64,000 bases of DNA from assembly GCA_000004985.1 (NCBI GenBank), contig GG738916.1. The stretch is one strand, 5' to 3'. The notes under the pieces are model-generated. The model had not been told where the DNA came from, ran no database searches, and was given only the letters and a program-made list of their open reading frames with translations. The position numbers and the translations under genes were made by a program. Of the stretch, positions 44,604 through 62,288 are shown piece after piece; position 1 is the first letter of the stretch, and every line of letters starts with the position of its first letter. This DNA comes from Naegleria gruberi. Taxonomy: Eukaryota.

Positions 44604-47600
44604 CTACATGTTGTACTCCTTAAGAGCTTTTTCACTACTTGCTAATGCACTCGAAACACCTTTGACAAATTGAAGTGCAATTGTAATATATGGACTAAGG
44701 AAAGATAACAATACTATAATAATGATCAAAAGTAGTGCAACACCAATGATTACTAAAACTGTTACCACTTGTTGAAGCGTAATTCCAGAAAATATTTTTG
44801 GAAAATAAATCACTGCCCATTCTATAAATTCAACAAATGTTGTCCACAAATTGAGAATAAAGTTAATAAACTTCTCTGCATTGCTAATCAAAAAGTTCAG
44901 AATTTTCTCCATTAATTTTGGAATGGAGCTGAAAATATCTGCAATGTTTGGAATAACTCCTCCAAAAAGGTCAATAAAACCAGTTCCTAAGGATTCAATA
45001 ACATTACCAATTGAACTACCTATAGATGCTGCACCAGATGCCATATCACCAATTAAATCCCAACCTTCCACAAGAACATCCCAAAAAGAGGCACCTCTAC
45101 GTGAGTCACCACAATTCTTGTCAGGAACAACACTACTACAATCATAATCCATATAACCCTGATAACATTTACATGTATCAACTGCTATACAATCACCATG
45201 TCCAGAACATACTTCTTTCTTGTCTCCTGAAATATCGAAACATTTTGGAAAGCCACACATGAAACCACCCCAATTCGGTTGACAGATACACTTATTTGGT
45301 CCCAAACACAATCCACGACCACTACACACAGCTCCTTCTACATTAATGTGAGTGGATAAAATGCTATTACAACTTAAAGTGCCACAGAATGCATCTCCAT
45401 AACCAGAAAAACATTCACACTTATCAAAATCGACACAAACACCACTTGAATTGCACACGTTTGGATCTGTGGCAACAATTCCATTACATGTTGGTGTTGC
45501 ACATAATTTTCCACCCCATGAATTGCAACTACATTCATCATTCTCAATACAAATACCCCTCGAGTTACATACTGTTGGATCTGTGGCCAAAGTTCCATTA
45601 CATGTTGGAACGGTACAGAATTCACCTCCCCAATCTCTATAACAATTACACTTATCTGGTGCAACACACACTCCAAAACCATTACAAACAGTTAGTTCAG
45701 TGGCCGATGTTCCATTACATGTTGGTGTTGAACATAATGGTCCAGTCCAACCTTTCTCACATTTGCATCGATTAAGATCAATACACTTTCCATTTCCACT
45801 ACATGCATTACTCTTTGCGATACACACTTCATTCTCATCAAATGCAAGAATTCCATTACATGATGGTATTGTACATAGTTTACCACCCCAACCTGAGAGA
45901 CATTTACATTGATTTGGACCAACACATACTCCCAATGAATTACACACATTTGAATCAGTTGCTAAAGTTCCATTACAAAATGGAATTTCACAAAATTGAC
46001 CTCCCCACATTTCATTACATTGACATTGATTTTCATTGACACATTTTCCTCTAGAGTTGCAAACTGCCTCATTGTTAGCCAATATACCTTGACATTTAGG
46101 TATTTCACATTGTTTACCACCCCAATTTAAATTACAATTGCATTGATTTGGACTAGTACATTCACCATGTCCACTACACACCAATGTATTATTGCTAACT
46201 ATAGTTCCATTACTATCAGTATTGGTAGTAGCATTGGTAGATAGAATATTATTACAAATTGGTGTGGAACAATCTTCACCTCCCCAACCAGTTAAACAGA
46301 TACAAAGATTGGCACCAATACAATCACCCTTTCTACTACAAACAGATATATTAGTGGAAATTATACCACTACATATTGGAGTTTCACATAATTGATCTGT
46401 CCAATTTGAGTCGCAAATGCATTCATTTGGTTGAACACATTTACCATTGCCATTACATGCTGTTTCATTGGTTGCCAAAACATCTCCACATATTGGAATT
46501 TCACAATATTGACCTGCCCAATTTGAATTACATAAACATTCGTCTGGACGAATGCAAAGACCATTTCCACTACACACCACTGTTTCATTGGTGGTTAAAG
46601 TTGAATTACTATCATTGGTAGCCTTAATACCATTACATATTGGAATTTCACAAAATGGACCTGTCCAATTTGAATTACAAATACATTCATTGGGTTGAAA
46701 ACATTCTCCATTACCATTGCATACATAAGGATCAGTTGCCAGTGTAGAGTTGCATTTTGGAGATTCACAATATTGTCCACCCCATGTAGAATTGCACTCA
46801 CAAACATCTGGACCAACACATGCACCATTACCACTACACACAAATTCATAAATGGCCAAAGTTCCATTACAAATTGGAATTTCACAAAGTTCTCCTGACC
46901 AACTTGAATTACATTCACAAATATTTGGACTCACACATTGACCGTTTCCACTACAAACCAAAACATCAGTTGCACTCGTACCATTGCAAAGTGGAGTTTG
47001 ACAGAATTGACCAGTCCAATTACTATTACATAAACATTGGTCTGGATTAATACATATACCATTAGTGTTACAAACTGATTCATTTGTGGCTAAAGTTCCA
47101 TTACAGATTGGAATTTCACACAAATAACCTCCCCATGTTGAATTACATTCACAGGTGTCTGGACTGACACAAATACCATTACCACTACAAACTGATAAAT
47201 CTGTACCAGCTGTTCCATTACAAAGTGGAGTTTGACAGAATTGACCAGTCCAATTGGTATTACAAATACATTCATCTGGTTGAATACATTCACCATTTCC
47301 ATTACATACATAAGGATCAGTTGCCAGTGTAGAGTTACATTTTGGAGATTCACAAAATTCTCCACCATATGTCGAATTACACTCACAAATATTTGGGCTA
47401 ATACAGTTACCATGTCCTTCACAAACAGATATATTATTTGCCAATATTCCATTACAAAATGGAATTTCACAATACTGTCCACCCCATTCTGAAGTACAAT
47501 TACATATATCTGGTTGAATACATGTACCATTGCCATTACAAACCAAAGTATCAGTTGCCATTGTTCCATTACAAATTGGAATTTCACAAAATTGGCCTGT

Positions 47601-50600
47601 CCAATTGGAATTGCAAAAACATTCATCTGGATTAATACAAATACCGTTGCTGTTGCACACTGTGTCATTGGTAGCTAACGTTCCATTACAAACTGGGACT
47701 TGACAAAATTGTCCACCCCATTCTGATGTACAAACACATTCATCTGGTTGAATACATATTCCATTGCCATTACATACAGTTTCGTTGGTGGCTTCAGTAC
47801 CATTACATATTGGAATTTCACAAAATTGACCTGTCCAATTGTAATTGCAAAGACATTCGTCAGGTTGAATACATGCTCCATTGTTGTTACAAACAAAAGG
47901 ATCAGTTGCGAGTGTAGAGTTGCATTTTGGAATTTCACATAAATCACCTCCCCATGTTGAATTGCAGTTACAAATATTTGGATTAATACATTCACCATTA
48001 CCACTACAAACTGATAAATCTGTACCAGCTGTACCATTACAAAGTGGTGTTTCACACAATTTACCAGTCCAATTTGTATTACAAATGCATTCATCTGGTT
48101 GAACACATTCGCCATTACCATTACAAACAGAATAGTTGTTAGCTAAAGTTCCATTACAAATTGGAATTTCACAAAATTCTCCACTATATGTCGAATTACA
48201 CTGACAAAGATTTGGACCAACACATGCACCGTTACCGCTACATACAGATTCGTTAGTGGCTTCTGTTCCATTACAAATTGGAATTTCACAAAATTGCCCA
48301 GTCCAATTGGAATTACATAAACATTCATCTGGGCGAATGCAAAGACCATTTCCACTACACGCCACTGTTTCATTGGTGGCTAATGTCGCATTGCTATCAT
48401 TGGTAGCTTTAATACCTCCACAGATTGGAATTTCACAATAAGGACCTGTCCAATTTGAATTACAAAAACATTCATCTGGCTGAATACATTCTCCATTACC
48501 ATTACAAACAAAAGGATCAGTTGCATTTGTTCCATTACATACTGGAATTTCACAAAATTGACCAGTCCAATTCGAGTTACATTCACAAATATTTGGACTA
48601 ATACATTTACCATGTCCTGCACAAACAGATGTATCATTAGCAAGAGTATCATTACATATTGGAATTTCACAAAATTCTCCACTCCAAGTTGAATTACATT
48701 CACAAACATCTGGACTAATACAAATACCATTACCACTACATACTGTTGAGTTTGCATCCTCTAGGGTTACATTACAGAGAGGAAATTGACAAAATGGACC
48801 ATAATACCCTGATTGACAATCGCAAGTGTCCAGTGAAGTACATATTCCATGAGAAGTACAAACTGTAGAATTTGTACTTTCAATTGAATTACAAGTTGTC
48901 ATATTACAATAAGTTCCAAAGTATCCACTTGTACAAACACAATTATCACTTGAAATGCACAATCCATGAGAATTGCAAACAGTAGTTTCATTTCCTGAAA
49001 TGTTAAAGCAAGTTGGAATTTCACATTGATATCCTGAATAGCCATCATTACATACACATGTATCGTTTGCAACACATGTTCCGTTTTGATTATTACAAAC
49101 CATTGAATCATTTCCCAATATTGAAAAACAAATTGGAATTTCACAATATTGACCTGTAAATCCTGATTCACAATCACAAGTTTCTGGGCTAGTGCAATTA
49201 CCAACACCATTACAAACACTTGAACTATTTGAAAGTGTATTGTTACAAATAGAAAGCTCACAACACACTCCAGCATATCCCTGACAAATACAAGGATCAT
49301 TAGTATCAATCAGAGCAAATGATGTTAAATGGGATGTTTCACAAATAACAGTACTAGAATTCACCATTTTAGTTCTTACACCATCAGATTTCCATGTATT
49401 TTCAATCCTATCCAAATACATACATGTTAAATTGGATGATTTGGTTATGTTTTGTGAGTGTAATGGAATGATCAAAGTGATTGGCTTGTTCAATTGTTTT
49501 ACAATAACTTCTTTACCACTATCACTCAGTAAAGAAACAGAAACTATAGCACTTTTAACTTTAGGTGTTATCTTATCAATATAAATTGATGAAAATAGAA
49601 TTAATGAGCTATCACTGTTCAATCCACTTGTTGAAATCAAATCACTACTCAATGTGGAAGGAAGTGAAATTTGAATACCCATATTAGTATTCGAATAACT
49701 ATAAGAAACATAAATATTCTTCGAATTTAAATCACCCAATTGATTTGCAACTTGATAATTGTAGGATGTGACATTTGTTGAAACAGCTATTGAACAATAA
49801 GATCCAATCCAACCGTAATTGCAAACACAAGTTTCTGGACTAGTACAATTTCCAACACCATTACAAACCTTCTTACTTGTAGCAAGTGTACCATTACAAA
49901 TTGGTGTTTGACAATATTGACCTCCCCAAGTTGAATTACATTTACATTCATTAAAACCATTACAGATACCATTGCCATTACAAACTGATTTTGAATTGGA
50001 TCGTGTTCCATTGCATGTATTCACACAACTCATAGCTCCATTGAAATCTTGTGTAAATTGAAGAGTTGTGCCACATTCAATGATCTTTCTAATCCTGTTA
50101 TTGGATGTGTCTGCAATTAATATTTCATTATTATTTGGAGAAACAAAAACACCTTTAGGAGAATTAAGTCGACTCGCAATTGACAAACCACCATCACCAC
50201 CAAATGATCCATCGCTACTACTTCCAGCAATGGTTGTAATAGTTCCATTCACAAATATCTTTCTAATTCGATGATTCAATGTGTCAGCAATGTAAATTTC
50301 ACCACTCTGTGAAACATGGACGCCATATGGTGAATTCAATTGAGAGTTTATAGCCAAGCCACCATCACCACCAAATGATGCTCGACCAGTTCCTGCTACT
50401 GTTGTAATCAGTCCGTTAACAAATATCTTTCTAATTCTATGGTTCAATGTATCAGCAATATAAATTTCACCATTCTGAGAAATATGAACACCATTTGGAG
50501 AGTTCAATGGTGAAAGAACAGCAAATCCACCGTCACCACCAAATGATGCTCTACCAGTTCCAGCAATAGTTGAAATTACACCATAACTATTAATCTTTCT

Positions 50601-51227
50601 GATTCTATGGTTCAATGTGTCAGCAATGTAAATTTCACCATTCTGAGAAATAGAGAGACCATTTGGTGAATTTAATTTTGCTCTACTAGCTAAACCACCA
50701 TCACCACTAAAACCATCACAATCAGAATGTTCATTACAGTTTTGCTTTCCAGAAACAATGGTCACCAAATAACTTGACAGAGAAACGGAAAGAATTCTAT
50801 GATTTAACACATCTGTCATGTATAATTCATTTCTAAATAAAACAGCCATGGTTGGTTTAAACTTGTTACCTGTTTGCATATTAATTGGTAATGTGAAAAT
50901 TGTACCATTCATAAATATTTTTCTAATTCTTCCATTTTGTGTATCGACAATAAGTGTTTCAGTGTAATTATTATTGTTGAGAGGTGAAATACTTATTGAA
51001 TAGGAGGGAGAATTTAATTGGGCATTGATAGCCAAACCACCATCTCCTTCCATACCTGCTGCTGCCATTAATCCACTTCCTGCAATTGTTGAAATATATG
51101 ATAATTTAGTGGTGGAACTTGTAGTTGCTGCTGTTGTTGTTGTGGAAAAGATTGTCATCATCATCAACAAGAATAATAACAGGACAATGTTGTTTGCGCT
51201 TCTCATTTCATCCAGAGCTCTCTTCAT
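44604..51227 (-). CDS. NHL-repeat/EGF-repeat giant surface protein, copy 3. It is intact (2207 aa, no gaps) and shows the full architecture. The domains in order are: signal peptide; six to seven NHL repeats (aa about 45-385); two EGF repeats; an about 165-aa domain ending in a GPS/GAIN-like motif (aa about 480-645); about 45 tenascin-type EGF repeats rich in N-glycosylation sequons; an about 120-aa Gly-rich amphipathic domain; a TM anchor; and an about 30-aa tail.
   Basis: It is a continuous ORF on the minus strand. The signal peptide is MKRALDEMRSANNIVLLLFLLMMMTIF. The GPS-like motif is TCMYLDRIENTWKSDGV...STVICETSHLTSFALI. The C-terminal TM is VVTVLVIIGVALLLIIIIVLL. Confidence 0.8.
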   Translation of the reverse strand: MKRALDEMRSANNIVLLLFLLMMMTIFSTTTTAATTSSTTKLSYISTIAGSGLMAAAGMEGDGGLAINAQLNSPSYSISISPLNNNNYTETLIVDTQNGRIRKIFMNGTIFTLPINMQTGNKFKPTMAVLFRNELYMTDVLNHRILSVSLSSYLVTIVSGKQNCNEHSDCDGFSGDGGLASRAKLNSPNGLSISQNGEIYIADTLNHRIRKINSYGVISTIAGTGRASFGGDGGFAVLSPLNSPNGVHISQNGEIYIADTLNHRIRKIFVNGLITTVAGTGRASFGGDGGLAINSQLNSPYGVHVSQSGEIYIADTLNHRIRKIFVNGTITTIAGSSSDGSFGGDGGLSIASRLNSPKGVFVSPNNNEILIADTSNNRIRKIIECGTTLQFTQDFNGAMSCVNTCNGTRSNSKSVCNGNGICNGFNECKCNSTWGGQYCQTPICNGTLATSKKVCNGVGNCTSPETCVCNYGWIGSYCSIAVSTNVTSYNYQVANQLGDLNSKNIYVSYSYSNTNMGIQISLPSTLSSDLISTSGLNSDSSLILFSSIYIDKITPKVKSAIVSVSLLSDSGKEVIVKQLNKPITLIIPLHSQNITKSSNLTCMYLDRIENTWKSDGVRTKMVNSSTVICETSHLTSFALIDTNDPCICQGYAGVCCELSICNNTLSNSSSVCNGVGNCTSPETCDCESGFTGQYCEIPICFSILGNDSMVCNNQNGTCVANDTCVCNDGYSGYQCEIPTCFNISGNETTVCNSHGLCISSDNCVCTSGYFGTYCNMTTCNSIESTNSTVCTSHGICTSLDTCDCQSGYYGPFCQFPLCNVTLEDANSTVCSGNGICISPDVCECNSTWSGEFCEIPICNDTLANDTSVCAGHGKCISPNICECNSNWTGQFCEIPVCNGTNATDPFVCNGNGECIQPDECFCNSNWTGPYCEIPICGGIKATNDSNATLATNETVACSGNGLCIRPDECLCNSNWTGQFCEIPICNGTEATNESVCSGNGACVGPNLCQCNSTYSGEFCEIPICNGTLANNYSVCNGNGECVQPDECICNTNWTGKLCETPLCNGTAGTDLSVCSGNGECINPNICNCNSTWGGDLCEIPKCNSTLATDPFVCNNNGACIQPDECLCNYNWTGQFCEIPICNGTEATNETVCNGNGICIQPDECVCTSEWGGQFCQVPVCNGTLATNDTVCNSNGICINPDECFCNSNWTGQFCEIPICNGTMATDTLVCNGNGTCIQPDICNCTSEWGGQYCEIPFCNGILANNISVCEGHGNCISPNICECNSTYGGEFCESPKCNSTLATDPYVCNGNGECIQPDECICNTNWTGQFCQTPLCNGTAGTDLSVCSGNGICVSPDTCECNSTWGGYLCEIPICNGTLATNESVCNTNGICINPDQCLCNSNWTGQFCQTPLCNGTSATDVLVCSGNGQCVSPNICECNSSWSGELCEIPICNGTLAIYEFVCSGNGACVGPDVCECNSTWGGQYCESPKCNSTLATDPYVCNGNGECFQPNECICNSNWTGPFCEIPICNGIKATNDSNSTLTTNETVVCSGNGLCIRPDECLCNSNWAGQYCEIPICGDVLATNETACNGNGKCVQPNECICDSNWTDQLCETPICSGIISTNISVCSRKGDCIGANLCICLTGWGGEDCSTPICNNILSTNATTNTDSNGTIVSNNTLVCSGHGECTSPNQCNCNLNWGGKQCEIPKCQGILANNEAVCNSRGKCVNENQCQCNEMWGGQFCEIPFCNGTLATDSNVCNSLGVCVGPNQCKCLSGWGGKLCTIPSCNGILAFDENEVCIAKSNACSGNGKCIDLNRCKCEKGWTGPLCSTPTCNGTSATELTVCNGFGVCVAPDKCNCYRDWGGEFCTVPTCNGTLATDPTVCNSRGICIENDECSCNSWGGKLCATPTCNGIVATDPNVCNSSGVCVDFDKCECFSGYGDAFCGTLSCNSILSTHINVEGAVCSGRGLCLGPNKCICQPNWGGFMCGFPKCFDISGDKKEVCSGHGDCIAVDTCKCYQGYMDYDCSSVVPDKNCGDSRRGASFWDVLVEGWDLIGDMASGAASIGSSIGNVIESLGTGFIDLFGGVIPNIADIFSSIPKLMEKILNFLISNAEKFINFILNLWTTFVEFIEWAVIYFPKIFSGITLQQVVTVLVIIGVALLLIIIIVLLSFLSPYITIALQFVKGVSSALASSEKALKEYNM

Positions 51228-51447: not shown

Positions 51448-53166
51448 TTGCCGATGAAATATTCTAAAATATTGCAAGTGAGTCAAGATATATTTTGCAA
51501 TGTAATTATTCCCTATTTTAATTCACATACTTTGATTGCTTTTGCTGGAGTTTGTTCCGAGTGGAGAAGAATTGTCAAAGAAAGTGATACTAGAGGAATC
51601 AAGTGTGTAAATGTAAAACATAAATCAGCAAGATACAGATTTGAATCATTAAATGATGAGGAGGAAATGAGTGGATTAATGAAAGGTGACCTCTTGCAAA
51701 TATTCTCACAAATGGAAATAAGAACTTTTCCAGAATTTGAGGAAACTATTTTTCTTAACAGATCTTTTTTTAAAAAGTTATTCAATTCAAAAAAATTGGA
51801 ATTATTGACATTACAAAATACTAATATTATTACAATTATTATTCCTGCTAAAGATATTTCACCAATTACAACACTGAAATTAATAAGTGTTCAAATGGAA
51901 GTTGAGAATTTAAGAACTATATGCACTAATTTACTAAATTTAACAGATCTAACATTAATTGATAATGGACTTGATTATAAGGCAACACTTGTATTGACCA
52001 AATCAAAGTTGACTCGTCTAACACATCTTACACTTCGTAATCGAATTGGAGATGAAGGTGTTAATCAAATATTGACTCAACCAGGAAATATTAGAACTTT
52101 GAAATATATTAACTTTGTTGCAATACCTCCAGAATCATCTCAAAAAGACAATATTTCATACATAGCACCAATTAATAGTTCAATTTTACCAAATCTTGAA
52201 TATTTTTCAATAGATTTGGAGATGTCGACAAAATCAATTATGAATGTGTTGAATAGTGGTAATTCATGGAGAGAATTGACCTTTCTTCACTCACATTTAA
52301 ATAGTGAATGTGTGAAACAAATTGGAAAAATTCATACACTCCAAAAACTTTGTTTTCAATCAAAATTGGAAGTAGATTTACCTTACAGATGTTTATTACC
52401 TCTTCAAAATAATCTCACTCATCTAGAAATTGGTCCTGTTGATAATAATACATTCTCTGAATTGAGTGAGGGTAACTTTCTTAATTTGAAATATTTATGC
52501 ATTCTAAATACAAAACAAGGAAATGAAATAGATGAATATGTAATACGAAAATTCTGTGAAAAAGTTCAAAATCTAACCTATTTAGAGTTAAGAAAAGTAG
52601 TAATGAAAAGTGGATGTATGAATCACATATCCCAACTTTCAAAAATAACTGATTTACGAATTATTCAAACACATATTGATAGTGAAGGAATGAAATATTT
52701 ATCAAGAATGAGTAACATGACAACATTATATTTAGGAAGTGAAATTACATTTGATGGTATTTCATATTTATGCAAGGGAAATTTACTAAATTTACACACT
52801 TTAAAGTTTACAAGAGTTCCTTCAGGCAAGTTCAAATATGACTCAAAGTTTACATCAAGTTTAGCTCATTCAAATTTTCCAAAATTAAGATATTTGAGTT
52901 TTTATTATGAATTTGATATTTATGCAACTGATATGTTACATTCTGGACCATCTCTGAAAAATTTGATACATTTAGAACTTTATTGGGTAGATTTAACAAT
53001 TACACCTATTTTAGTACCTATAGTCAATAATCTGGCACCTAAATATCTGACTGGAATTGGAGGTTTTGCAGCCCTTAAAGCAAAAGTCATATCACAATTA
53101 AGACAACCAACAAAAATCAACTATTTGATTGCATATACAGATATACGAATTGATGAATTTATTTAA
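51448..53166 (+). CDS. F-box-like/LRR protein, copy C. The start is probably MKYSKILQ at 51454.
   Basis: It is near-identical to copies A and B. It shares the C-terminus GIGGFAALKAKVISQLRQPTKINYLIAYTDIRIDEFI with copy A. Confidence 0.65.
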   Translation: MPMKYSKILQVSQDIFCNVIIPYFNSHTLIAFAGVCSEWRRIVKESDTRGIKCVNVKHKSARYRFESLNDEEEMSGLMKGDLLQIFSQMEIRTFPEFEETIFLNRSFFKKLFNSKKLELLTLQNTNIITIIIPAKDISPITTLKLISVQMEVENLRTICTNLLNLTDLTLIDNGLDYKATLVLTKSKLTRLTHLTLRNRIGDEGVNQILTQPGNIRTLKYINFVAIPPESSQKDNISYIAPINSSILPNLEYFSIDLEMSTKSIMNVLNSGNSWRELTFLHSHLNSECVKQIGKIHTLQKLCFQSKLEVDLPYRCLLPLQNNLTHLEIGPVDNNTFSELSEGNFLNLKYLCILNTKQGNEIDEYVIRKFCEKVQNLTYLELRKVVMKSGCMNHISQLSKITDLRIIQTHIDSEGMKYLSRMSNMTTLYLGSEITFDGISYLCKGNLLNLHTLKFTRVPSGKFKYDSKFTSSLAHSNFPKLRYLSFYYEFDIYATDMLHSGPSLKNLIHLELYWVDLTITPILVPIVNNLAPKYLTGIGGFAALKAKVISQLRQPTKINYLIAYTDIRIDEFI

Positions 53167-53496: not shown

Positions 53497-54781
53497 TTAT
53501 TGTTGAGGAATTGATGGAAAATATTGATCAACTAAATGCTTTGAAAGTAATTGGTCAACCATTTCACATGGAATCAATTCTGGATAGTAAACTCCCATTA
53601 TACATCCAGTAATAGCTCCATATGTATCAGCATCTGCTCCAGTTAATACTGAAAATATGACAGATTCGAAACCTCTTGGTTGATCCTCAAATACCCATGA
53701 AGGTAATTGAGGAGGACATTCAACTTTTCTATCAAAGTTTACCGAATCAACTTTAGCAGAGTGATAAAGACACCATAAAGCAATCTTTAAACTCAAAACA
53801 CTCCATCCTGAAATATTCTTGTAATTGAAATTGTATGGATTAAATGTTTCGAACTCTTTCAAGTTTCCTAAAACTTTCTTTTCTTCCATTTCTAATGCCT
53901 TCTTTCCACCATTATTCTTAATCCATTCCAAAATTATAGGATGAACCTTCTTTTCATTACATAATTGTTTAAAATTGAACCATTCACCTGTCTTTCCACA
54001 TAAAATATTAGTAACAGTTTCAGTAGTAATAATTTCTAATGGTTTTTGATTTCTATACGATTCCAAAGCTCTATGAATTACAATTGAATGAACAATACAT
54101 GGAAGAATTGCCTCAAATGTATAATGAGTAATAATAGAATGTAATATAGTCCATTCCAATATCTGTGAAATGTCACTACTCAATAATGGAATAACTCCAT
54201 TTCTCATGAGAGCTCCATTTGAAGGTGGAGATTGATTTTCATTAAACAATTCCAAAGATCCACAACTCCAATAATTTTCCTTACTTTGTGAATGAGCTCT
54301 TTTAGCATATAAAAGTGATTTTCTTGTTGTAAAACCAACATCCTTTGGTTCCTTATTGAGCCATTCTAAAAATTTATCACAAACATGTTCTGGATTGAAT
54401 TGAGAATTACACTCGTGAAAACTTTGTAAAATTGCCAAGGCCATCTGATGGTAATTTTGTAAATATTTCAATAATTATTACAATAAATTTACAATAACAT
54501 ACATCACTATCATCTGTTGATTCACCCTTCTTCCAAGTTAAATTAGCACACAATTCAAATGGCCATCCAGCTTTTTCACTCTTAATTAAATTTTGAACTT
54601 GATTTGGATGTTTGAATTCACTTGTGGATCCCAAACAATCTCCGATAATTAGTCCGAAAATGGTTGATTTTTTAATATCGGACAAGTTGGAAGAGAAATT
54701 GTAATAGTTTATCAATGGGATAGATGAGTCAGAGGAGGATGGAAAGAGCTTGCGAGTAGTGGTACTTGGATGTTGAGACAT
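53497..54781 (-). CDS. ADP-ribosylglycohydrolase (ARH) family protein. It has two exons: exon 1 is 54781..54503, a 58-nt intron lies at 54502..54445 (GTATGT...ATCAG), exon 2 is 54444..53497.
   Basis: Exon 1 encodes ...IFGLIIGDCLGSTSEF...GESTDDSD. Exon 2 begins MALAILQSFHEC... and contains the C-terminal VLTGADADTYGAITGCIMGVYY block. These are the GxxxGDAxG, GxxTDDT and DxDT motifs of the ARH fold. The splice junction restores the colinear TDDSD-MALA sequence. Confidence 0.75.
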
Positions 54782-54907: not shown

Positions 54908-56370
54908 TTATTCAACTGTTGATGTTTCTTTTTGATACATTGTCCAAAATCTATTCAAAACCCTTTTGATAATTTCCATTTTTGGTTTTACAACAGTGGA
55001 AATTGACAATGATACAGAATCTTGAAATTTTCTAATTCTATCATTTTCATTTGCTTCCTTTTCTTCAGTTACTGAATAGATTACAATTCCAATAACAAGA
55101 ATCACCAATGAAACAACATCAAACATACTCAATTGAGATTCCAATGCTTCTCCTGCAATGAATTTCAATAAAAAGAAGAGATTTGAAAGAGCTAATCTGG
55201 AAACAGCTGCAATGACAGCTAGTGTTGAACTTCCATATTGGAAAACATATAACTTTCCAAAATTAGAAAATTCCAAATATGTAAAACTTACTTCTAAGGT
55301 TGCGTAGGTAAAATTAAAGAATATATCTGCCCAGAAAACAAGTGGAAATGATTCACATCTATCAGGTGATGATCCACCAACAATTGAATTAATTCCAACA
55401 CTACATTTAATCCCATTCCAAATATAGGTATTTAAATCAGACCATGAAATTGAAACTGTTTGTGGAATTGGTACAAAAACAAATACAGATGTAATAATAC
55501 CAAATAAAACTTGCCAAACTGAAACCCAATAATTAACTAACCATACATCCAATTTTTCCTTTTTTAAACATTTTTCCTTATATACATTACTTGCTGCTTG
55601 TGGAATATTGGAACAAAATAAAAGTAAAATCCACAACCAATCCATAGATGATGATGAAGCAATACTAGATGCATCTTCCTGTGCAAAAACTGGATATAAA
55701 TTAATTATCAAACCACATAAAACAAGTAAAACTCCTGAAAAGTGAAAAGTATTGTAACGAGTGTGGAGGAATGTGAAACTCATGATAATGTTAATGAGAA
55801 TTACGGATTGACTGAGCATGGTATTGAGACTACCACTGACATAGGCTGCTGGAATGGTTTGGAGTGTGTTTGTGGCATTATCTAGGAAGGCCATGATTAC
55901 ATACTTAATTTGGGAAGTACTATTTTTGGAAATAGTTGTAAAAATTAATAGTTTGAATTTGATACATACTCTCATTTTTTTTGTAATTTTACCTCTCCAT
56001 ATTTGAAATACAACAATTGGAGCCAAAATTACAACATACACAACATTTACCAAATTTGTCAACATGTAACTGTTACTAATTCTACCAAATATGTTACATC
56101 TTTCACTACTTACATGTAATTTTGAATTTCATATGTTAATCTCACATATAAAACAGTATCACAACTTCTAGCAATGACCATAATACATGTCAATGCATAA
56201 ACAATTAGAAATCTCCACCATTTAGATTTCTTACTTGGCAAATTAACATCTTTTTGTGCTTCATCACTGCTTGTTTGCATGTTATCTTGATTATCAATAT
56301 TGTCATCATCTTGAATTGAAGTGTTAATTGAGAAATCCTTTGCTAAAAGTGCAGTTTCTTCTTGAGCCAT
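54908..56370 (-). CDS. CRT-like (chloroquine-resistance-transporter-like, drug/metabolite transporter superfamily) membrane transporter. Exon 1 is 56370..56114, a 38-nt intron lies at 56113..56076, exon 2 is 56075..54908.
   Basis: The total length is about 470 aa with about 10 TM segments. IMAFLDNATNTLQTIPAAYVSGSLNTMLSQSVILINIIMSFTFLHTRY aligns to the PfCRT core ([50 protein letters not shown]). C-terminal blocks are also colinear. Confidence 0.7.
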
Positions 56371-57031: not shown

Positions 57032-59682
57032 ATGACTAGAGTATCACCCTATATTGTCGATCATCAACAAGAACAACCGAATGCTGAAAAGAATGATGAT
57101 GGTGGTGTTGGAGCAGCACAATTATTTTCTGATACCGCCGATAATGCTTCTTCACTAATGAGTAGTAGTGAATATTCGACAACTCATAAAAGTGTTTCCT
57201 TCTTTACTTCTATTAAATTTTGTTTAATATTGGCAAAGTTTATGGTTGTCTTGTTGAGTGTATCAACATTGTCTATTATTTGGATTAGTAGTTTTGCACC
57301 AACTGTTTCAGAATTAAGTAGTAAAGTGAGAGATTCTGAAATTAATGTAATTATTAAGAATACTGTCAATACATTGAGTGAGATTGCTCATGTTGGAAAG
57401 ATAATGAGACAACAAGTTTTAAGTTATGGATATGGAATATCAGATTATTCAAAGGTTGAAGTTAGTATGTATGGAAATTATAAGGTAAGACTTGTTGTTG
57501 TTTTTAATTGTCAATTAATTGTCATTTATTGTAAACAACTAACATGTCATCATCATGAAACAACTTACATGTATAGACCTCTCAAGAATTATATGGTGGT
57601 GTAACTATTGCTAGTTATATTGGAGATCCATATAATAATTGTTTTGGAACAATGACATGGACATCTACTGCATCAGGAGCTGCCACATTTAACATTACAC
57701 CAACTGATTTTCAAATCTTTTATTGTGCTAGTATGTCAGATAATGAAAGATGTATTAGAGATTCAACTCCAAATGAGGTGTTAGGATTCTATGATATGAA
57801 AATACTTATTGAATCATGTAATAATTATCCAAATGATGTGGTATTTACACCTAGTTTTGCTGATCCTATACTTCCTCAATATACTTGGGTCAGTATGCTT
57901 TCATGTGTACCAAGAACAACACCTGATGCATATGGAAATAAGTTTTCTCTCTATTATGGAATGGATTTGACAATTACTTCCATTTCTGATTTTTTGAAGA
58001 ATAAGACTAGATCAATATATGGAGCTAGAGGATTCTTTATAGAAACCAAGTCAAGTTACCTAATTGCAGTTGATAGTGATATTCCCACATCTAAATCTCT
58101 ATCAGATGGAACTATTCAAAGATTTACCATTTACACAATTGATGATAAGGAAGTAGTCATGTTTTCACAAACTATTCTCTCATCAATTGGATCATTAACA
58201 ACATTAACATGTAACTCTCTCAATATTATATCAGATTCATCTCATTACATTCTTTCATATAGACTTTGTACAGATACTCATATTGATTGGGTTTTAGTTT
58301 ATGTTGTTCCTCAATGGAATTACATTTCTTCTACAATTATTGCTGTCATTATTGCCATGATTGGTAGTATTTTAATTATTTGTATTGGTATCATTGTTGC
58401 TACATTTGTTTCTCTCAAGATTGTTAAACCATTTTATAGTTTAATTTGAAAGTGTAGCGAATATGAATTTGGATGAAATGTCAATAAGAGAATCTGGTTT
58501 CTCTGAAGTTAAACAACTTCAAAAACAGTTCATTTTCATGGTTAATCGTATCAAGTTATACAAGTCATTCATACCTTCACATTTGTTATCTGAAATTGAG
58601 AATAATTCTGCAGAAAATTTACCAATGATGGTAAGAGATGACAAGACAGCAAGTCTAGCAGAAGAATCAACACAAGTGGGAGAAGAACAATCCTCTATTA
58701 CAGGTTCAAGATTTTCACATGATGATAGCCATAGACAGAGTTTTAAGAAAATCAAAAGAAGAATGGAAAATATCAATAGATTTGCATTATATCTTGAAAC
58801 TAAATCTGTAACACTATTAATGACCAAACTAAGAGGATTGAATGAGTGGGTTGAACATCTTCTACCAAGTGAAACTGTCATATTATTAACTGATGTTTTT
58901 GATATCATGAATGGCATTTCTAGACTTGCTAGAGGTGCTCATTTGAGTCTTTTTGAAAATGATTCAATCATGTTGAGTTTTAATGCAGTTGGTCAAGAAG
59001 AATCAAATCATCAAGAGAAGGCACTTAATGCTTCTAGAATGCTCGTTGAAAAACTTTCAAATGTAAAGTCTACAAAATGGAGGAATCATCAACTTTTGAG
59101 TAAGAGACCAAAACTTGCAGATGCACTCAAATTCAATTTTGCCATCACTACACAAGAGAGTGTATGTGGTAATATTGGAACCAAAGATTCAAAATACTTT
59201 ACAATTATGGGAAGTGGAAAGAATAATTTGGAAAACATGTTACACTCTTCTAGCTCATTAGATGTTCAAATAGTTTGTTCAGATAATGTTAAATTAGTTT
59301 GTGAAAATAGTTTCATGATGAGATTACTCTTTCCATTCACTTTCTTAAATGATAGCTCACTATCTAATAGACAAGATGAATCAATCACAAGAAATGGATA
59401 TGTCTATCAAGTAGGTTCAGCACTTGCCACCTCCAATGATGATGAATGGATGTAAGTAACTTAAATTTAAATCAAAACTAACTCATTTTAAACAATAGGT
59501 ATGAACTTGAAGATCAACAAAAGAAGAATATTTGGAATTTATATAATGAAGGAGCACAACTCTTCCAACAACAAGCATATGAGAGTGCATTGGAAAAGTT
59601 TGAAAAGTTCAGTAATGAAAATCCAAATGATAAAGCTGTTCGACACATGATTTCCCTTTGTAGCATTCCATCAACCAAATGA
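57032..59682 (+). CDS. Receptor-type protein with a divergent class III nucleotidyl-cyclase-like (CHD) domain. The domain order is TM1, an about 300-aa extracellular Cys-containing sensor domain, TM2, a cytoplasmic cyclase-like domain, and a short helical C-terminal exon. Exons are 57032..57484, 57577..58449 (there is probably a 1-nt insertion artefact at about 58446, and the frame continues at 58450..59451), and 59499..59682. Introns are 57485..57576 and 59452..59498.
   Basis: The TMs are FCLILAKFMVVLLSVSTLSIIWI and STIIAVIIAMIGSILIICIGIIVATFVSL. The cytoplasmic region VILLTDVFDIMNGISRLA...LSLFENDSIMLSFNAVG...NASRMLVEKL...KFNFAITTQESVCGNIGTKDSKYFTIMGSGKNNLENM is colinear with the CHD motifs (FADIVGFT...KTIGDAYM...RIGIHTGPVVAGVIG..YDVWGDTVNLASRM). 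The two listed ORFs are separated only by an out-of-frame TGA; removing one T in the ATTT run fuses them. Confidence 0.5.
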
Positions 59683-59706: not shown

Positions 59707-60462
59707 TTACTTCTTTTTTTTAGAAGGAGGATCATCATCTGAAGAAGAAGGAGGTGGTGCTATTGTTGTTGGAACTACCAATACCTTTCCTTTTCTCAAT
59801 CTCTTCAATTGAGAGGGAAGTCCTGGCATTACTTGCTCTGAAAAAGCAACACAATGATTCTGTTCAACATGTGTTTTGAGTTCATTCATGCTAAATACCT
59901 CATAAACATTTTCCTTACAAACTTTACAATATTTAACATTTGGAGAGACAACTTTAAAGGCATTTGATTTAAGTGGACATTCATATTCCCATTCACAATT
60001 CTCAATGAATTGACTATCCTTATCAATTCTAAACACCTTATCAATGGATGTATTGATCACTCTCTCTTTCAAAAGTGGTAATTCATTTGGAAATTTGTTT
60101 TGCAAGTGAGTCACTCTTCTTCTCATGACATGCATCCAATTCTTTATATTCAAAGTTTGTGAATAATTTGGAAAATAATGGAGAACGATAGGTTTCCAAA
60201 TGACTTGTTGAACAACATTACACGATTCATCCTTCTTATAATTATCCTTGATAGCAATCAATTGAGCATCAATATTCTTCTTACTCAAATCTTTCTTTCT
60301 CTTTGCAATGGCTTCAACTTTTTCCACTGTCAAGTTGAAGAATACTTCCAACATGTTTTTATCACATCTTGCAAAGTTGTTCAAATCTCCAAGTGGAAGA
60401 AAAGCACCAACTGCAATGAGCATATCCTTGTTCAAAGAGGTTCCGTTCAGTGTGGATGCCAT
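59707..60462 (-). CDS. Hypothetical protein (251 aa) with a weak F-box-like N-terminal motif, a Cys-containing central region and a Pro/Ser/Asp/Lys-rich tail.
   Basis: It is an intact ORF. MLIAVGAFLPLGDLNNFARCDKNM is F-box-like. ...CPLKSNAFKVVSPNVKYCKVCKENV may be a zinc-ribbon-like element. There is no confident family assignment. Confidence 0.35.
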   Translation of the reverse strand: MASTLNGTSLNKDMLIAVGAFLPLGDLNNFARCDKNMLEVFFNLTVEKVEAIAKRKKDLSKKNIDAQLIAIKDNYKKDESCNVVQQVIWKPIVLHYFPNYSQTLNIKNWMHVMRRRVTHLQNKFPNELPLLKERVINTSIDKVFRIDKDSQFIENCEWEYECPLKSNAFKVVSPNVKYCKVCKENVYEVFSMNELKTHVEQNHCVAFSEQVMPGLPSQLKRLRKGKVLVVPTTIAPPPSSSDDDPPSKKKK

Positions 60463-60596: not shown

Positions 60597-62288
60597 TCAT
60601 TCCACCAATGAAGCAATAAAATCATTTTGATCCACTAATCGTTGTTGTAAATCTAATAAATCTTGTAAACATAAAGTTTCAACATTTTCAAATAATTCAA
60701 TTGGAATATTTGTTTCATCTTTTTCAATAATATTTAATAAATCTCTTCTCATAACATTTATATTTGGTAAATTTAATTCCAATGGAGCAGATAGACTAAT
60801 ATAGGAATCAATCATTTTCAAAGCCTTTTCTTTTCTATCCTTTTTAGGTAATTTTTTAAATTTTTGAATATCAGTCCAACATAATACTGGTTCAGGTGTA
60901 TAACTTCTACGTGCAAAATCTAGAAATATTGAATATGTTTTTGGATCTTTAAGTAATATTTCAGTTGTACTAAATGAAGTAATATTTCTATTTTTACTAT
61001 TTATAGAAAATAATCCACCATTTCTAATAAAATCCAATCTAATATCATAACATACAGGTAATACAACACATACAAATATTTCAAATACACTTCCTGCTAA
61101 TAAAACTAATAAGTAAGGTACAAAATAATCAACTAATTCAGCAATTATAGGAATACTTCCCAAAACAATAAATAAAATTACTAAAAATGGTTGAACAATA
61201 ACATGTACAAGTGTTTCCTTTTTAATATTCCATGTATCTCTATCTGATCTAATACATAATACTAATGTAATCCATTCAACTATATAATAAACTAATGCTT
61301 CTGCTATAATTATACCAAACATGGCACTAGATCCAATACATCCATATGAGAATTGAAAAAATCCAGGAATTACAAAGAAATGAGGTTCATTTTCATTTTT
61401 AGTATTGGAATGAATAATTTCATCAATTCCACCTAAAATTATCCAAAATAGAATTTGACTAAGAAAACATAAAAAATAGGCTGAAATTACAAATGTATGA
61501 CTTGTCATGAATTGATAAAATTTAAATATTCTCCATTCTTTTTTTGTTATTAATCTCTTTTCTATATTATTTTCATTATTTTCATTATTTAATTCTATAT
61601 TAGTATTTTCATTATTATTTTCATTGATATTTAATTCTATATTATTTTCATCATTTAATTCTATAGAATTAGAAATATGAATACTATTATTTAATTCAAT
61701 TTCTTTTATATTATTTTTTAATTCCATATTAGTAAGTGATATTCCATTTTTAGAATTAATAATTAAATAATTATCATTATATATTCTAGTTTTAAATAAA
61801 TTTAATTTATAACTAAAATATAATTTTAAACATCTACAAGTGACAGGTAAACTAGTTAATGGACCAGCAACAAAGAAACTCAAAGTATATAAACTACATG
61901 GAAATACCTTTCTTCCAATAATTATTCGAAGTGAAAATATGACAACAAAAAAACAAGATGAAAGCATTGTTAAAAACATGTGTGAAATACTTCTAGCTTG
62001 AATATTACCTGATTTACGTTTCCAAATAATTGAAATTGATGTGAAAAATAATAAAAAAAGATAAAATATTAGAAAGGCTAACATTAATGCGAATGATACA
62101 TTAGTATCGGGACACATTTGATTTTCAATACTGGGATTTAATTCTCTACTTAGACCTATTGTAAATAATATTGGATGACAATAAGTTGTTGTCGTGTTAT
62201 TAGTAGTGGAATTAGTAGAATTACTATTCGAAAGTGCAATAATATTACTATTCGAAAGTAGTTGTTGTGCGATAGTTTCCAGCATCAT
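60597..62288 (-). CDS. Seven-transmembrane receptor-like protein with a C-terminal RGS (regulator of G-protein signalling) domain; the 7TM-RGS architecture is as in plant RGS1. It has a long Asn/Glu-rich cytoplasmic loop.
   Basis: There are multiple TM segments in the first 450 aa. The C-terminal RGS box is SFSTTEILLKDPKTYSIFLDFARRSYTPEPVLCWTDIQKFKK...KALKMIDSYISLSAPLELNLPNINVMRRDLL...LFENVETLCLQDLLDLQQRL. Confidence 0.55.
   Translation of the reverse strand: MMLETIAQQLLSNSNIIALSNSNSTNSTTNNTTTTYCHPILFTIGLSRELNPSIENQMCPDTNVSFALMLAFLIFYLFLLFFTSISIIWKRKSGNIQARSISHMFLTMLSSCFFVVIFSLRIIIGRKVFPCSLYTLSFFVAGPLTSLPVTCRCLKLYFSYKLNLFKTRIYNDNYLIINSKNGISLTNMELKNNIKEIELNNSIHISNSIELNDENNIELNINENNNENTNIELNNENNENNIEKRLITKKEWRIFKFYQFMTSHTFVISAYFLCFLSQILFWIILGGIDEIIHSNTKNENEPHFFVIPGFFQFSYGCIGSSAMFGIIIAEALVYYIVEWITLVLCIRSDRDTWNIKKETLVHVIVQPFLVILFIVLGSIPIIAELVDYFVPYLLVLLAGSVFEIFVCVVLPVCYDIRLDFIRNGGLFSINSKNRNITSFSTTEILLKDPKTYSIFLDFARRSYTPEPVLCWTDIQKFKKLPKKDRKEKALKMIDSYISLSAPLELNLPNINVMRRDLLNIIEKDETNIPIELFENVETLCLQDLLDLQQRLVDQNDFIASLVE

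What the first reader, a model, noticed from the sequence alone, without database searches (positions are those of the whole stretch)
57032..59682. Receptor-type cyclase-like gene (two TM segments flanking a large extracellular domain, then a divergent CHD domain) split by a single-base frame slip
The two ORFs at 57652-58449 and 58463-59455 plus a 5' exon and a 3' exon reconstruct one gene. It has a short cytoplasmic N-terminus, TM1, an about 300-aa extracellular domain with conserved Cys, TM2, a cytoplasmic domain colinear with class III adenylyl/guanylyl cyclase motifs, and a helical tail. Both metal-binding Asp positions are retained but other positions are substituted, so it may be an active but divergent cyclase or a pseudo-cyclase. 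A sensor-cyclase of this topology is typical of bacterial and kinetoplastid receptor cyclases and of the osmosensing cyclase of social amoebae. This one looks like an undescribed paralogue. The only obstacle to a continuous ORF is one extra T at about 58446.
Basis: partly seen in the sequence, partly recalled or inferred. Interest (0 to 1): 0.55.

Follow-up and report, generated by a model that had tools for sequence, protein, structure and literature searches.

The report
Frame-broken Naegleria pseudo-cyclase receptor gene
This is an already-annotated but mis-modelled Naegleria gruberi gene for a two-pass membrane sensor whose cyclase-like domain has lost most catalytic residues, and whose reading frame is broken in this assembly by what looks like an 8-base loss rather than one extra T.

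Summary
The gene is real. It has three exons (57032-57484, 57577-59451, 59499-59682), and the frame changes at 58444-58449. The window is Naegleria gruberi, not a dictyostelid. The locus is already deposited as NAEGRDRAFT_74695 (XP_002670368.1). That model hides the break with a false 52-nt intron (58439-58490) and omits the last exon.

The claim that both metal-binding Asp residues are kept is wrong. The first is Lys. The substrate Lys and Asp and the transition-state Arg are also replaced. Only Asp2 and Asn remain. The same holds across relatives: of 118 aligned relatives (cluster representatives plus a few cluster members), only one keeps the canonical residues. The protein is most likely a pseudo-cyclase receptor: sensor ectodomain, HAMP-like segment, Ser-rich linker, dead cyclase domain, TPR-like tail.

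Dropping one T does give an open frame, but the resulting HAMP-like helix is 3 residues shorter than in every relative examined. A single 8-nt deletion explains the sequence exactly. The rest of the gene looks undecayed, so this is either a very recent null allele or an assembly error. Reads could not be checked. Interest is modest.

The parts
57032..57484 (+). Exon 1: start codon, cytoplasmic N-terminus, TM1 (about 57212-57289) and the first part of the ectodomain
   Evidence: It translates to MTRVSPY...GNYK. The N-terminus aligns with MTKVQPF and MTARTKIHP of the N. fowleri and N. lovaniensis relatives. Hydropathy peaks at aa 65-83.
57485..57576 (+). Intron 1, 92 nt: GTAAGA...ACTAAC...TATAG
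   Evidence: An intron lies at the same protein position (after ..YK) in the N. lovaniensis gene.
57577..58446 (+). Exon 2, first part (frame 1): rest of the ectodomain (to about 58323), TM2 (58324-58416), and the start of the HAMP-like helix (KIVKPFYSLI, then TGA at 58447-58449)
   Evidence: 290 stop-free codons. tblastn segment 57577-58446. Four conserved Cys and the motifs DW..V..VPQWNY across 17 relatives. The ectodomain fold is unresolved: no PDB sequence hit, AF2 pLDDT below 50, and only sub-threshold MCP-like_PDC_1 hits in distant relatives.
58444..58449 (+). Frame break: ATT TGA in frame 1 overlaps TTT GAA in frame 2 by two bases. Relatives have two more codons here (LI-xL-FES).
   Evidence: The N. 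lovaniensis DNA reads TTA ATT CAA TTA TTC GAG AGT. Removing 8 nt (CAATTATT, bounded by ATT microhomology) from an SLIQLFES-type sequence gives the window sequence exactly. The deletion itself is an inference.
58439..58490 (+). False 52-nt intron of the deposited model XP_002670368.1. It is really coding sequence for the HAMP-like AS1 and connector.
   Evidence: Exons 57032-57484, 57577-58438 and 58491-59455 translate exactly to P0001. The skipped stretch encodes FESVANMNLDEMSIRE in frame 2, which matches the family consensus FESVSNMDLDxL. Its donor is GTTTAA and it has no CTAAC, unlike the two real introns. N. lovaniensis has no intron here.
58445..58591 (+). Exon 2, second part (frame 2), first segment: rest of the HAMP-like domain and the conserved FIPSHLL motif
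   Evidence: Profile A6 aligns colinearly to the whole NarQ HAMP domain (E=0.11) and to Af1503 HAMP (hhalign E=0.0019, probability 14%). F, P and H of the FIPxHLL motif are invariant and the final L nearly invariant in A6. Pfam HAMP gives no hit.
58592..58768 (+). Ser- and charge-rich low-complexity linker, about 60 aa, variable in length among relatives
   Evidence: The alignment is gappy and unconserved here. AF2 pLDDT is 27-40 over fragment residues 54-111.
58769..59451 (+). Degenerate class III cyclase homology domain. Catalytic positions: Lys568 (58826-58828, where metal Asp1 should be), Asp613 (58961-58963, metal Asp2), Asn701 (59225-59227), Met705 (59237-59239, where the Arg should be).
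59452..59498 (+). Intron 2, 47 nt: GTAAGT...ACTAAC...AATAG. It splits the conserved DEWM|YEL motif.
   Evidence: The same intron position occurs in N. lovaniensis.
59499..59682 (+). Exon 3: helical, TPR-like tail and the TGA stop (59680-59682). It is missing from the deposited model.
   Evidence: tblastn 59500-59679. It aligns to the tails of P0002, P0003 and P0004. TPR_2 E=0.073. Fis1_TPR_C 2.4e-4 in relative P0054. The orthologue model has three helices at 779-834 with pLDDT 80-89.

Best explanation
The locus is Naegleria gruberi gene NAEGRDRAFT_74695. It belongs to a large family, named members of which are heterolobosean, of two-pass membrane receptors. Each has a short cytoplasmic N-terminus, TM1, an ectodomain of about 310 aa with two probable disulfides (possibly PDC/Cache-like), TM2, a HAMP-like four-helix relay, a conserved FIPxHLL helix, a disordered Ser-rich linker, a class III cyclase-homology domain and a short TPR-like tail.

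The cyclase domain keeps the fold but lacks the first metal-binding Asp, the substrate-selecting Lys and Asp, and the transition-state Arg. It almost certainly cannot make cAMP or cGMP. By inference, intact members sense a signal outside the cell and pass a conformational change through the HAMP-like relay to a dimeric dead-cyclase module. That module would act as a scaffold or nucleotide- or partner-binding switch, with the TPR-like tail as a docking site, rather than as an enzyme.

In this assembly the copy is broken inside the first HAMP-like helix. The simplest history is one 8-nt deletion between short ATT repeats. That would truncate the protein after TM2 (...KPFYSLI*). Nothing else in the gene has decayed, so the lesion is very recent: a null allele, possibly tolerated in a long-cultured laboratory strain.

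Shown: gene structure, homology, residue substitutions, the frame break and the spacing anomaly. Inferred: loss of catalysis, the signalling mechanism, and that the lesion is biological rather than an assembly error.
For: Identity:
- P0001 is the N. gruberi predicted protein, 98% identical. It equals the window exons exactly.

Family:
- Full-length relatives in N. lovaniensis, N. fowleri and N. gruberi reach E down to 0.
- 128 cluster representatives reach E<=1e-30, many colinear over profile positions about 4-809.
- Named members come from Naegleria species, Willaertia and Percolomonas.
- All 17 close full-length members checked share the two-TM layout.

Cyclase homology domain (CHD):
- Sequence profile E=2.9e-9 to CyaB.
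- Foldseek E about 1e-10, target TM-score 0.7-0.79, for the orthologue model.

Degeneracy:
- Three independent alignments give the same mapping.
- Only P0120 of 118 aligned relatives shows the canonical motifs.

Lesion:
- The Pro-to-Met/Leu spacing is 14 in 59 relatives scored automatically, and by eye in most of the other 12 regex matches (three are unalignable or spurious). It is 11 in the one-T repair.
- The NarQ HAMP alignment is ungapped over this helix.

No long-term decay:
- 78 of 84 family-conserved positions are kept (0.929), within the range of the other close members, 0.78-0.96.
- There are no other stops.
Against: - No reads, traces, cDNA or second N. gruberi assembly could be reached. 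An assembly or sequencing error therefore cannot be excluded.
- If the error is a single extra T, the real protein would be continuous, though with an unusual 3-residue-shorter helix.
- Loss of catalysis is inferred from residues, not measured. Some class III cyclases with non-canonical substrate residues are still active (own knowledge: Rv0386).
- The HAMP assignment is statistically weak (E=0.11; Pfam silent).
- The ectodomain fold is unknown.
- No flank synteny with the N. lovaniensis locus was found, so strict orthology rests on a distance tree only.
Confidence: 0.6

Rival explanations
1. The frame break is a sequencing or assembly error. In the organism the gene is intact and makes a full-length receptor, either with the family-standard helix (8 bases missing from the assembly) or with a helix 3 residues shorter (one spurious T).
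For: The rest of the gene is undecayed: 92.9% of family-conserved positions are kept, and both halves are long stop-free frames. The break lies in an A/T-rich run (TTTAATTTGAAA). The deposited model had to be forced around the same break, so no independent sequence supports it.
Against: A one-base error would imply a HAMP-like helix 3 residues shorter than in every relative checked. An 8-base omission is an unusual consensus error. From my own knowledge, the assembly is Sanger-based, where homopolymer errors in a run of only three T are uncommon.
Confidence: 0.3
2. The protein is an active but divergent adenylyl or guanylyl cyclase.
For: The cyclase fold, the second metal Asp and the transition-state Asn are kept. 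UniRef and JGI label relatives 'guanylate cyclase domain-containing' or 'adenylate/guanylate cyclase'.
Against: The first metal Asp is Lys, and His, Leu, Tyr or Gln in relatives. The substrate Lys, the substrate Asp and the Arg are all replaced. PF00211 is not reached by the protein, and close relatives reach E=0.02 at best. No pairing within the family can rebuild a full site, because none of the close relatives (CHD score above 100) carries Asp1, and only 2 of the more distant, less reliably aligned ones show D there besides the canonical P0120.
Confidence: 0.06
3. The deposited gene model is right: 58439-58490 is a genuine 52-nt intron, and the protein simply lacks that stretch.
For: The stretch has GT..AG ends, and a length similar to the 47-nt intron of the same gene. 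Splicing it restores the frame.
Against: The stretch encodes 16 residues matching the family consensus in frame 2. Its donor is GTTTAA with no CTAAC branch motif, whereas both real introns have GTAAG and ACTAAC. N. lovaniensis has continuous exon sequence here. Splicing would delete half of the HAMP-like domain.
Confidence: 0.02
4. A programmed +1 ribosomal frameshift at AUU-UGA-A joins the two halves during translation.
For: A stop codon lies in the zero frame exactly at the shift point, with the continuing frame at +1. This is the general layout of antizyme- and RF2-type sites (own knowledge).
Against: No relative has a shift here. The product would lack 3 residues of an invariant-length helix. 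By inference, an Ile-tRNA re-pairing from AUU to UUU is poor.
Confidence: 0.02

Closest known systems
Bacterial class III (IIIb-type) adenylyl and guanylyl cyclase catalytic domains: P. aeruginosa CyaB (3r5g), Synechocystis Cya2 (2w01), Spirulina CyaC (1wc0/1wc1), M. tuberculosis Rv1625c
   Same: Same fold, and detectable sequence homology over about 150-200 residues. The second metal Asp and the Asn are kept.
   Different: Asp1, the substrate Lys and Asp, and the Arg are replaced. A Ser-rich insert of about 60 aa separates the signalling helix from the domain. A TPR-like tail follows it.
[quoted passage not shown]
   Same: Same lineage and the same general layout: sensor ectodomain, TM, HAMP-like relay, one class III domain. 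One N. gruberi paralogue (P0015) is annotated 'adenylate/guanylate cyclase'.
   Different: This subfamily's domain lacks the catalytic set. Pfam recognises neither Cache nor HAMP in it. I found no paper that notes the degeneracy.
Non-catalytic class III cyclase-like domains, such as the P. aeruginosa 'class III adenylyl cyclase-like ATP-binding protein' (6yii) and the degenerate second site of mammalian AC C1/C2 and sGC heterodimers
   Different: 6yii is a soluble bacterial transcription regulator. Here the domain sits on a two-TM receptor in a eukaryote. Whether it binds nucleotide was not tested.
Dictyostelium ACG and kinetoplastid receptor cyclases
   Different: The organism is different. 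From my own knowledge, those enzymes keep the catalytic residues and kinetoplastid ones have a single TM. No specific relationship was found here.

Membership tests
Class III nucleotidyl cyclase (CHD, Pfam PF00211) | Cyclase homology domain fold and sequence homology | tested here: met
Class III nucleotidyl cyclase (CHD, Pfam PF00211) | Protein reaches the Pfam gathering score for PF00211 | tested here: not met
   No PF00211 hit at E<=10 for the 836-aa model. Best among the 7 closest members is E=0.02. 22 of 53 more distant relatives do match at E<=0.01, and at least two pass the gathering score.
Class III nucleotidyl cyclase (CHD, Pfam PF00211) | Two metal-binding Asp residues | tested here: not met
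   The first is Lys568, the second Asp613. No close relative has Asp at the first position, and only 2 distant, less reliably aligned ones do besides P0120.
Class III nucleotidyl cyclase (CHD, Pfam PF00211) | Substrate-selecting pair (Lys/Asp for ATP, Glu/Cys for GTP) | tested here: not met
   Leu and Tyr at those columns. Relatives have Ser, Asn or Ala, and Asn, Gln or Ser.
Class III nucleotidyl cyclase (CHD, Pfam PF00211) | Transition-state Asn and Arg | tested here: not met
   Asn701 is kept. The Arg position is Met705, and Leu, Met or Ile in relatives.
Class III nucleotidyl cyclase (CHD, Pfam PF00211) | Cyclase activity | not testable with these tools
   Needs an enzyme assay.
HAMP domain | About 50 aa directly after the last TM: conserved Pro, helix AS1, connector, helix AS2 | tested here: inconclusive
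   Colinear, ungapped alignment to NarQ HAMP 174-228 at E=0.11. hhalign to Af1503 HAMP E=0.0019, probability 14%. No Pfam HAMP hit.
HAMP domain | Intact AS1 of standard length in this copy | tested here: not met
   The frame break lies inside AS1. The one-T repair gives Pro-to-Met spacing of 11 instead of 14.
dCache / PDC extracellular sensor | Recognisable PDC/Cache fold between the two TMs | tested here: inconclusive
   Sub-threshold MCP-like_PDC_1 hits (18-24 bits against a cutoff of 27) in three distant full-length relatives. No PDB hit for a 17-sequence ectodomain profile. AF2 pLDDT below 50.
Heterolobosean 2TM / HAMP-like / degenerate-CHD / TPR-tail family (defined here) | Full-length colinearity and the motifs PQWNY, KPFxxLI, FIPxHLL, CGNxG, DEWxYEL | tested here: met
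Pseudogene (unitary, recent) | Frame-disrupting lesion relative to intact relatives | tested here: met
   Present in this sequence and in the deposited reference model. Whether it is in the organism's DNA was not testable.
Pseudogene (unitary, recent) | Further decay: extra stops, or loss of conserved residues | tested here: not met
   No other stops. 78 of 84 conserved positions are kept.

The most novel reading that the evidence does not exclude
The gene stands for a large, unrecognised class of eukaryotic receptors in which a catalytically dead class III cyclase domain has been kept as the output module. There are at least 128 clusters at 50% identity, in Naegleria, Percolomonas and uncultured relatives, some with N-terminal ankyrin repeats. 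These receptors would signal through partner binding at a conserved DEWxYEL/TPR-like tail rather than through cAMP or cGMP. If so, a sizeable share of the much-cited Naegleria 'cyclase' repertoire would not make cyclic nucleotides.
Probability: 0.45. Interest if true: 0.55.

Novelty: new variant of a known kind. Interest (0 to 1): 0.3.

Why it matters
Naegleria genome papers use the large number of membrane 'adenylate/guanylate cyclases' as evidence for elaborate cyclic-nucleotide sensing (PMC9928731; PMC6366073). This family keeps the receptor architecture, but nearly every member examined has lost the catalytic residues. Gene counts may therefore overstate cyclase capacity, and these proteins would need another output.

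In practical terms, the deposited model of NAEGRDRAFT_74695 is wrong in two places. It has a false intron and lacks the last exon. The copy itself is probably non-functional in the sequenced strain. None of this changes a major question, and the gene itself is ordinary.

Tried and rejected
- Exact-protein look-ups, to find independent N. gruberi DNA across the break. I tried both window ORFs, P0001 and P0004, and none is on record.
- A gapped DNA pattern spanning the break, scanned against JGI metagenome contigs: 0 hits.
- A word-indexed protein search with the family alignment added only one protein. The exhaustive profile search was needed to see the family.
- A full-length AF2 model of the orthologue was poor outside the cyclase domain and tail (mean pLDDT 49.9). 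No conclusion was drawn on the ectodomain.
- An ectodomain profile against PDB sequences gave nothing.
- The AFDB fold library was unavailable.
- Flank synteny with the N. lovaniensis locus was not detected.
- Literature searches for pseudo-cyclases in Naegleria found nothing relevant.
- Stop-codon readthrough was rejected, because frame 1 hits another TGA eight codons later.
- Two separate genes were rejected. Only 13 nt separate the ORFs, and every full-length relative is fused.
Full report
**What is at the coordinates**

The full gene has these parts:
- an upstream exon, 57032-57484
- a 92-nt GT..AG intron, 57485-57576
- a long exon, 57577-59451
- a 47-nt intron, 59452-59498
- a last exon, 59499-59682

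These give an 836-codon reading if one T near 58445-58447 is dropped. tblastn of that model back onto the window recovers exactly these four segments and finds no second copy in the window. Both halves of the long exon are stop-free for 290 and 336 codons. The longest stop-free run in 2000 shuffles of the region was 157 codons. Both halves are therefore genuine coding sequence.

**Where it comes from**

The window is AT-rich, about 31% G+C, with short GTAAG...ACTAAC...AG introns. The best protein match is a 759-aa 'predicted protein' of Naegleria gruberi at 98% identity. Its accessions are XP_002670368.1, EFC37624.1 and NAEGRDRAFT_74695.

Joining window exons 57032-57484, 57577-58438 and 58491-59455 reproduces that protein exactly. 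Three things follow:
- The window is the reference sequence.
- The reference annotation steps over the frame break with a 52-nt 'intron' (58439-58490).
- The deposited model stops at DDEWM and misses the last exon.

The dictyostelid framing in the finding is therefore wrong, and the locus is not unannotated.

**The false intron**

Several observations show that the 52 nt are coding sequence and the deposited intron is an artefact of forcing a model across a frameshift:
- In frame 2 they encode FESVANMNLDEMSIRE. Every relative reads FESV(S/A)xM(D/N)LDxL at this place.
- The donor is GTTTAA and there is no CTAAC. Both real introns of the gene have GTAAG and ACTAAC.
- The N. lovaniensis gene is continuous exon across this stretch.

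The first and last introns of my model fall at the same protein positions in the N. lovaniensis gene: after ..YK, and inside DEWM|YEL. The last exon aligns with the C-termini of three full-length relatives.

**The frame break**

Frame 1 reads ...KIVKPFYSLI then TGA at 58447-58449. Frame 2 reads TAA then FESVANMNLD... from 58445. The two readings overlap by two bases.

All relatives have ...KPFYNLI-xL-FESV..., which is two more codons. Relative to the family the window lacks 8 nt.

N. lovaniensis has TTA ATT CAA TTA TTC GAG AGT at this point. Deleting CAATTATT (bounded by ATT repeats) from an SLIQLFES-type sequence yields the window's AGTTTAATTTGAAAGT exactly. That reconstruction is an inference.

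In relatives the distance from the conserved Pro to the conserved Met/Leu-x-Leu is 14 residues. An automatic count found this in 59 of them, and inspection by eye confirms it in most of the other 12 regex matches (three are unalignable or spurious matches). In the repaired window protein the distance is 11. The same helix aligns without gaps to AS1 of the NarQ HAMP domain.

So 'one extra T' is not the whole story. Either one 8-nt event occurred, or two events occurred, one of which shortened an otherwise invariant helix.

**Is the lesion real?**

I could not reach reads or a second N. gruberi sequence. Exact-protein look-ups of both ORFs, P0001 and P0004 found nothing. A DNA pattern spanning the site had no metagenome hit.

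Two observations argue against an old pseudogene. The gene keeps 78 of 84 family-conserved positions (0.929), inside the range of the other close members, 0.78-0.96. It also has no other stop.

The break is therefore either very recent or an artefact. I favour a real, recent 8-nt deletion, because one event explains everything and an 8-nt consensus error is unusual. I put this at only about 0.6, against 0.3 for an artefact.

The other readings are unlikely:
- Readthrough fails, because frame 1 meets another TGA eight codons on.
- A programmed +1 shift at AUU-UGA is not excluded. No relative has one, and the product would have the short helix.

**The domains**

- **Topology.** Hydropathy gives two TM segments (about aa 61-86 and 401-431) with about 310 aa between them. 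The same layout occurs in all 17 close relatives checked.
- **Ectodomain.** A 17-sequence alignment has four conserved Cys, two invariant and two nearly invariant. Its fold is unresolved. There is no PDB sequence hit, AF2 confidence is low, and there are only sub-threshold MCP-like PDC hits in three distant but full-length-colinear relatives.
- **HAMP-like segment.** The segment after TM2 is HAMP-like: colinear with NarQ HAMP at E=0.11, and with Af1503 at hhalign E=0.0019 but 14% probability. Pfam does not call it.
- **FIPxHLL motif.** This motif follows, with F, P and H invariant in A6. It resembles the signalling helix in front of class III domains. That resemblance is from memory and was not tested.
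- **Linker.** Next comes a disordered, Ser-rich linker of about 60 aa.

**The cyclase-like domain**

The protein alone does not hit PF00211 at E<=10, and it hits PDB cyclases only at E about 0.002. The evidence becomes clear at profile and fold level:
- A profile of seven family members hits CyaB at 2.9e-9, Cya2 at 1.3e-6 and CyaC at about 1e-4.
- The N. lovaniensis orthologue model gives Foldseek E about 1e-10.

The fold and ancestry are therefore confirmed.

The catalytic set is not. Three alignments agree on the mapping:

| Catalytic position | Canonical residue | Window residue |
|---|---|---|
| Metal Asp1 | Asp | Lys568 |
| Substrate Lys | Lys | Leu |
| Metal Asp2 | Asp | Asp613 |
| Substrate Asp | Asp | Tyr |
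| Transition-state Asn | Asn | Asn701 |
| Transition-state Arg | Arg | Met705 |

**The family**

An exhaustive profile search found 6731 proteins at E<=0.001 and 128 cluster representatives at E<=1e-30, many colinear over the whole length. Named members come from N. gruberi, N. lovaniensis, N. fowleri, Willaertia magna and Percolomonas. Others come from metagenome contigs, some labelled 'ankyrin repeat protein/class 3 adenylate cyclase'. 13 of 53 long relatives carry ankyrin repeats.

Of 118 cyclase-domain segments aligned, only one shows the canonical D-K-D-x-N-R pattern and motifs: P0120 from Willaertia. Apart from it, no close relative (domain score above 100) has Asp at the first metal position. 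Two distant, less reliably aligned sequences do. Alignment of the most distant members is less certain, but the roughly 55 with domain scores above 100 are clear.

Each active site of a class III dimer needs the two Asp from one subunit and Lys, Asp, Asn and Arg from the other (established knowledge). No pairing within this family can therefore build a site. A pairing with a canonical cyclase would cripple both sites. That last point is an inference.

**Mechanism proposed**

Intact members would work as follows:
1. The ectodomain senses an external cue.
2. The signal passes through TM2 and the HAMP-like bundle.
3. This changes the state of a dimeric dead-cyclase module.
4. That module signals by binding something, with the conserved DEWxYEL junction and the three-helix TPR-like tail as the likely docking surface. 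The tail evidence is pLDDT 80-89, and weak TPR hits.

The architecture and the residue losses are shown. The output mode is inferred. In this copy the protein would end after TM2 and so lack any output.

**Comparison with what is known**

Receptor-type class III domains with HAMP and Cache in Discoba, and the large Naegleria 'cyclase' repertoire, are described in the literature (PMC6366073; PMC9928731). Non-catalytic cyclase-like domains are also known; for example 6yii appears among the fold hits. I found no paper noting that this Naegleria family is degenerate.

The finding is therefore a variant of a known kind, in a gene already deposited. Its practical yield is a corrected gene model and a caution about counting cyclases by domain name.

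**Surroundings**

The gene is convergent with an unannotated 251-aa ORF that ends 24 nt downstream. Nearby genes include an RGS-domain protein, a CRT-like transporter, an ADP-ribosylglycohydrolase and an LRR protein. Nothing suggests a functional cluster.

Noticed in passing
window 24180-28301 (+) and 44604-51227 (-): Two large paralogous ORFs (1373 and 2207 aa) combine NHL repeats with many teneurin- or Delta-type EGF repeats. This is an animal-like extracellular architecture in a heterolobosean.
   Followed up: partly
window 25294-26811: Inside the first NHL/EGF gene, the DNA is also stop-free for 350-500 codons in five other frames on both strands. GC skew is strongly positive nearby. This looks like repetitive EGF-coding sequence that is poor in stop-forming triplets.
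   Followed up: no
window 58439-58490 and 59499-59682: The deposited model XP_002670368.1 (NAEGRDRAFT_74695) contains a false 52-nt intron and lacks the last exon. The database entry needs correction.
   Followed up: yes
window 60597-62288 (-): An ORF with an RGS domain (E=3e-8) lies two genes downstream of the cyclase-like gene. There is no evidence of a functional link.
   Followed up: no
window 59707-60462 (-): A convergent 251-aa ORF ends only 24 nt after the cyclase-like gene's stop codon. It has no Pfam match.
   Followed up: no
L001 6001-8844 (N. lovaniensis PYSW02000005.1): The closest N. lovaniensis relative has one extra intron (near aa 589). No neighbouring genes were shared with the window at tblastx 1e-8. 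Local gene order is therefore not conserved between the species.
   Followed up: partly
relatives P0063, P0067, P0074 and others (metagenome contigs of 23-50 kb): A subgroup of the family carries about 390 aa of N-terminal ankyrin repeats ahead of TM1. Three relatives have NIT sensor domains instead. Their organisms are unknown.
   Followed up: no
window 53497-54471 (-), 54908-56065 (-), 51448-53166 (+): These ORFs encode an ADP-ribosylglycohydrolase, a CRT-like transporter and an LRR protein, upstream of the gene. They look like ordinary neighbours.
   Followed up: no
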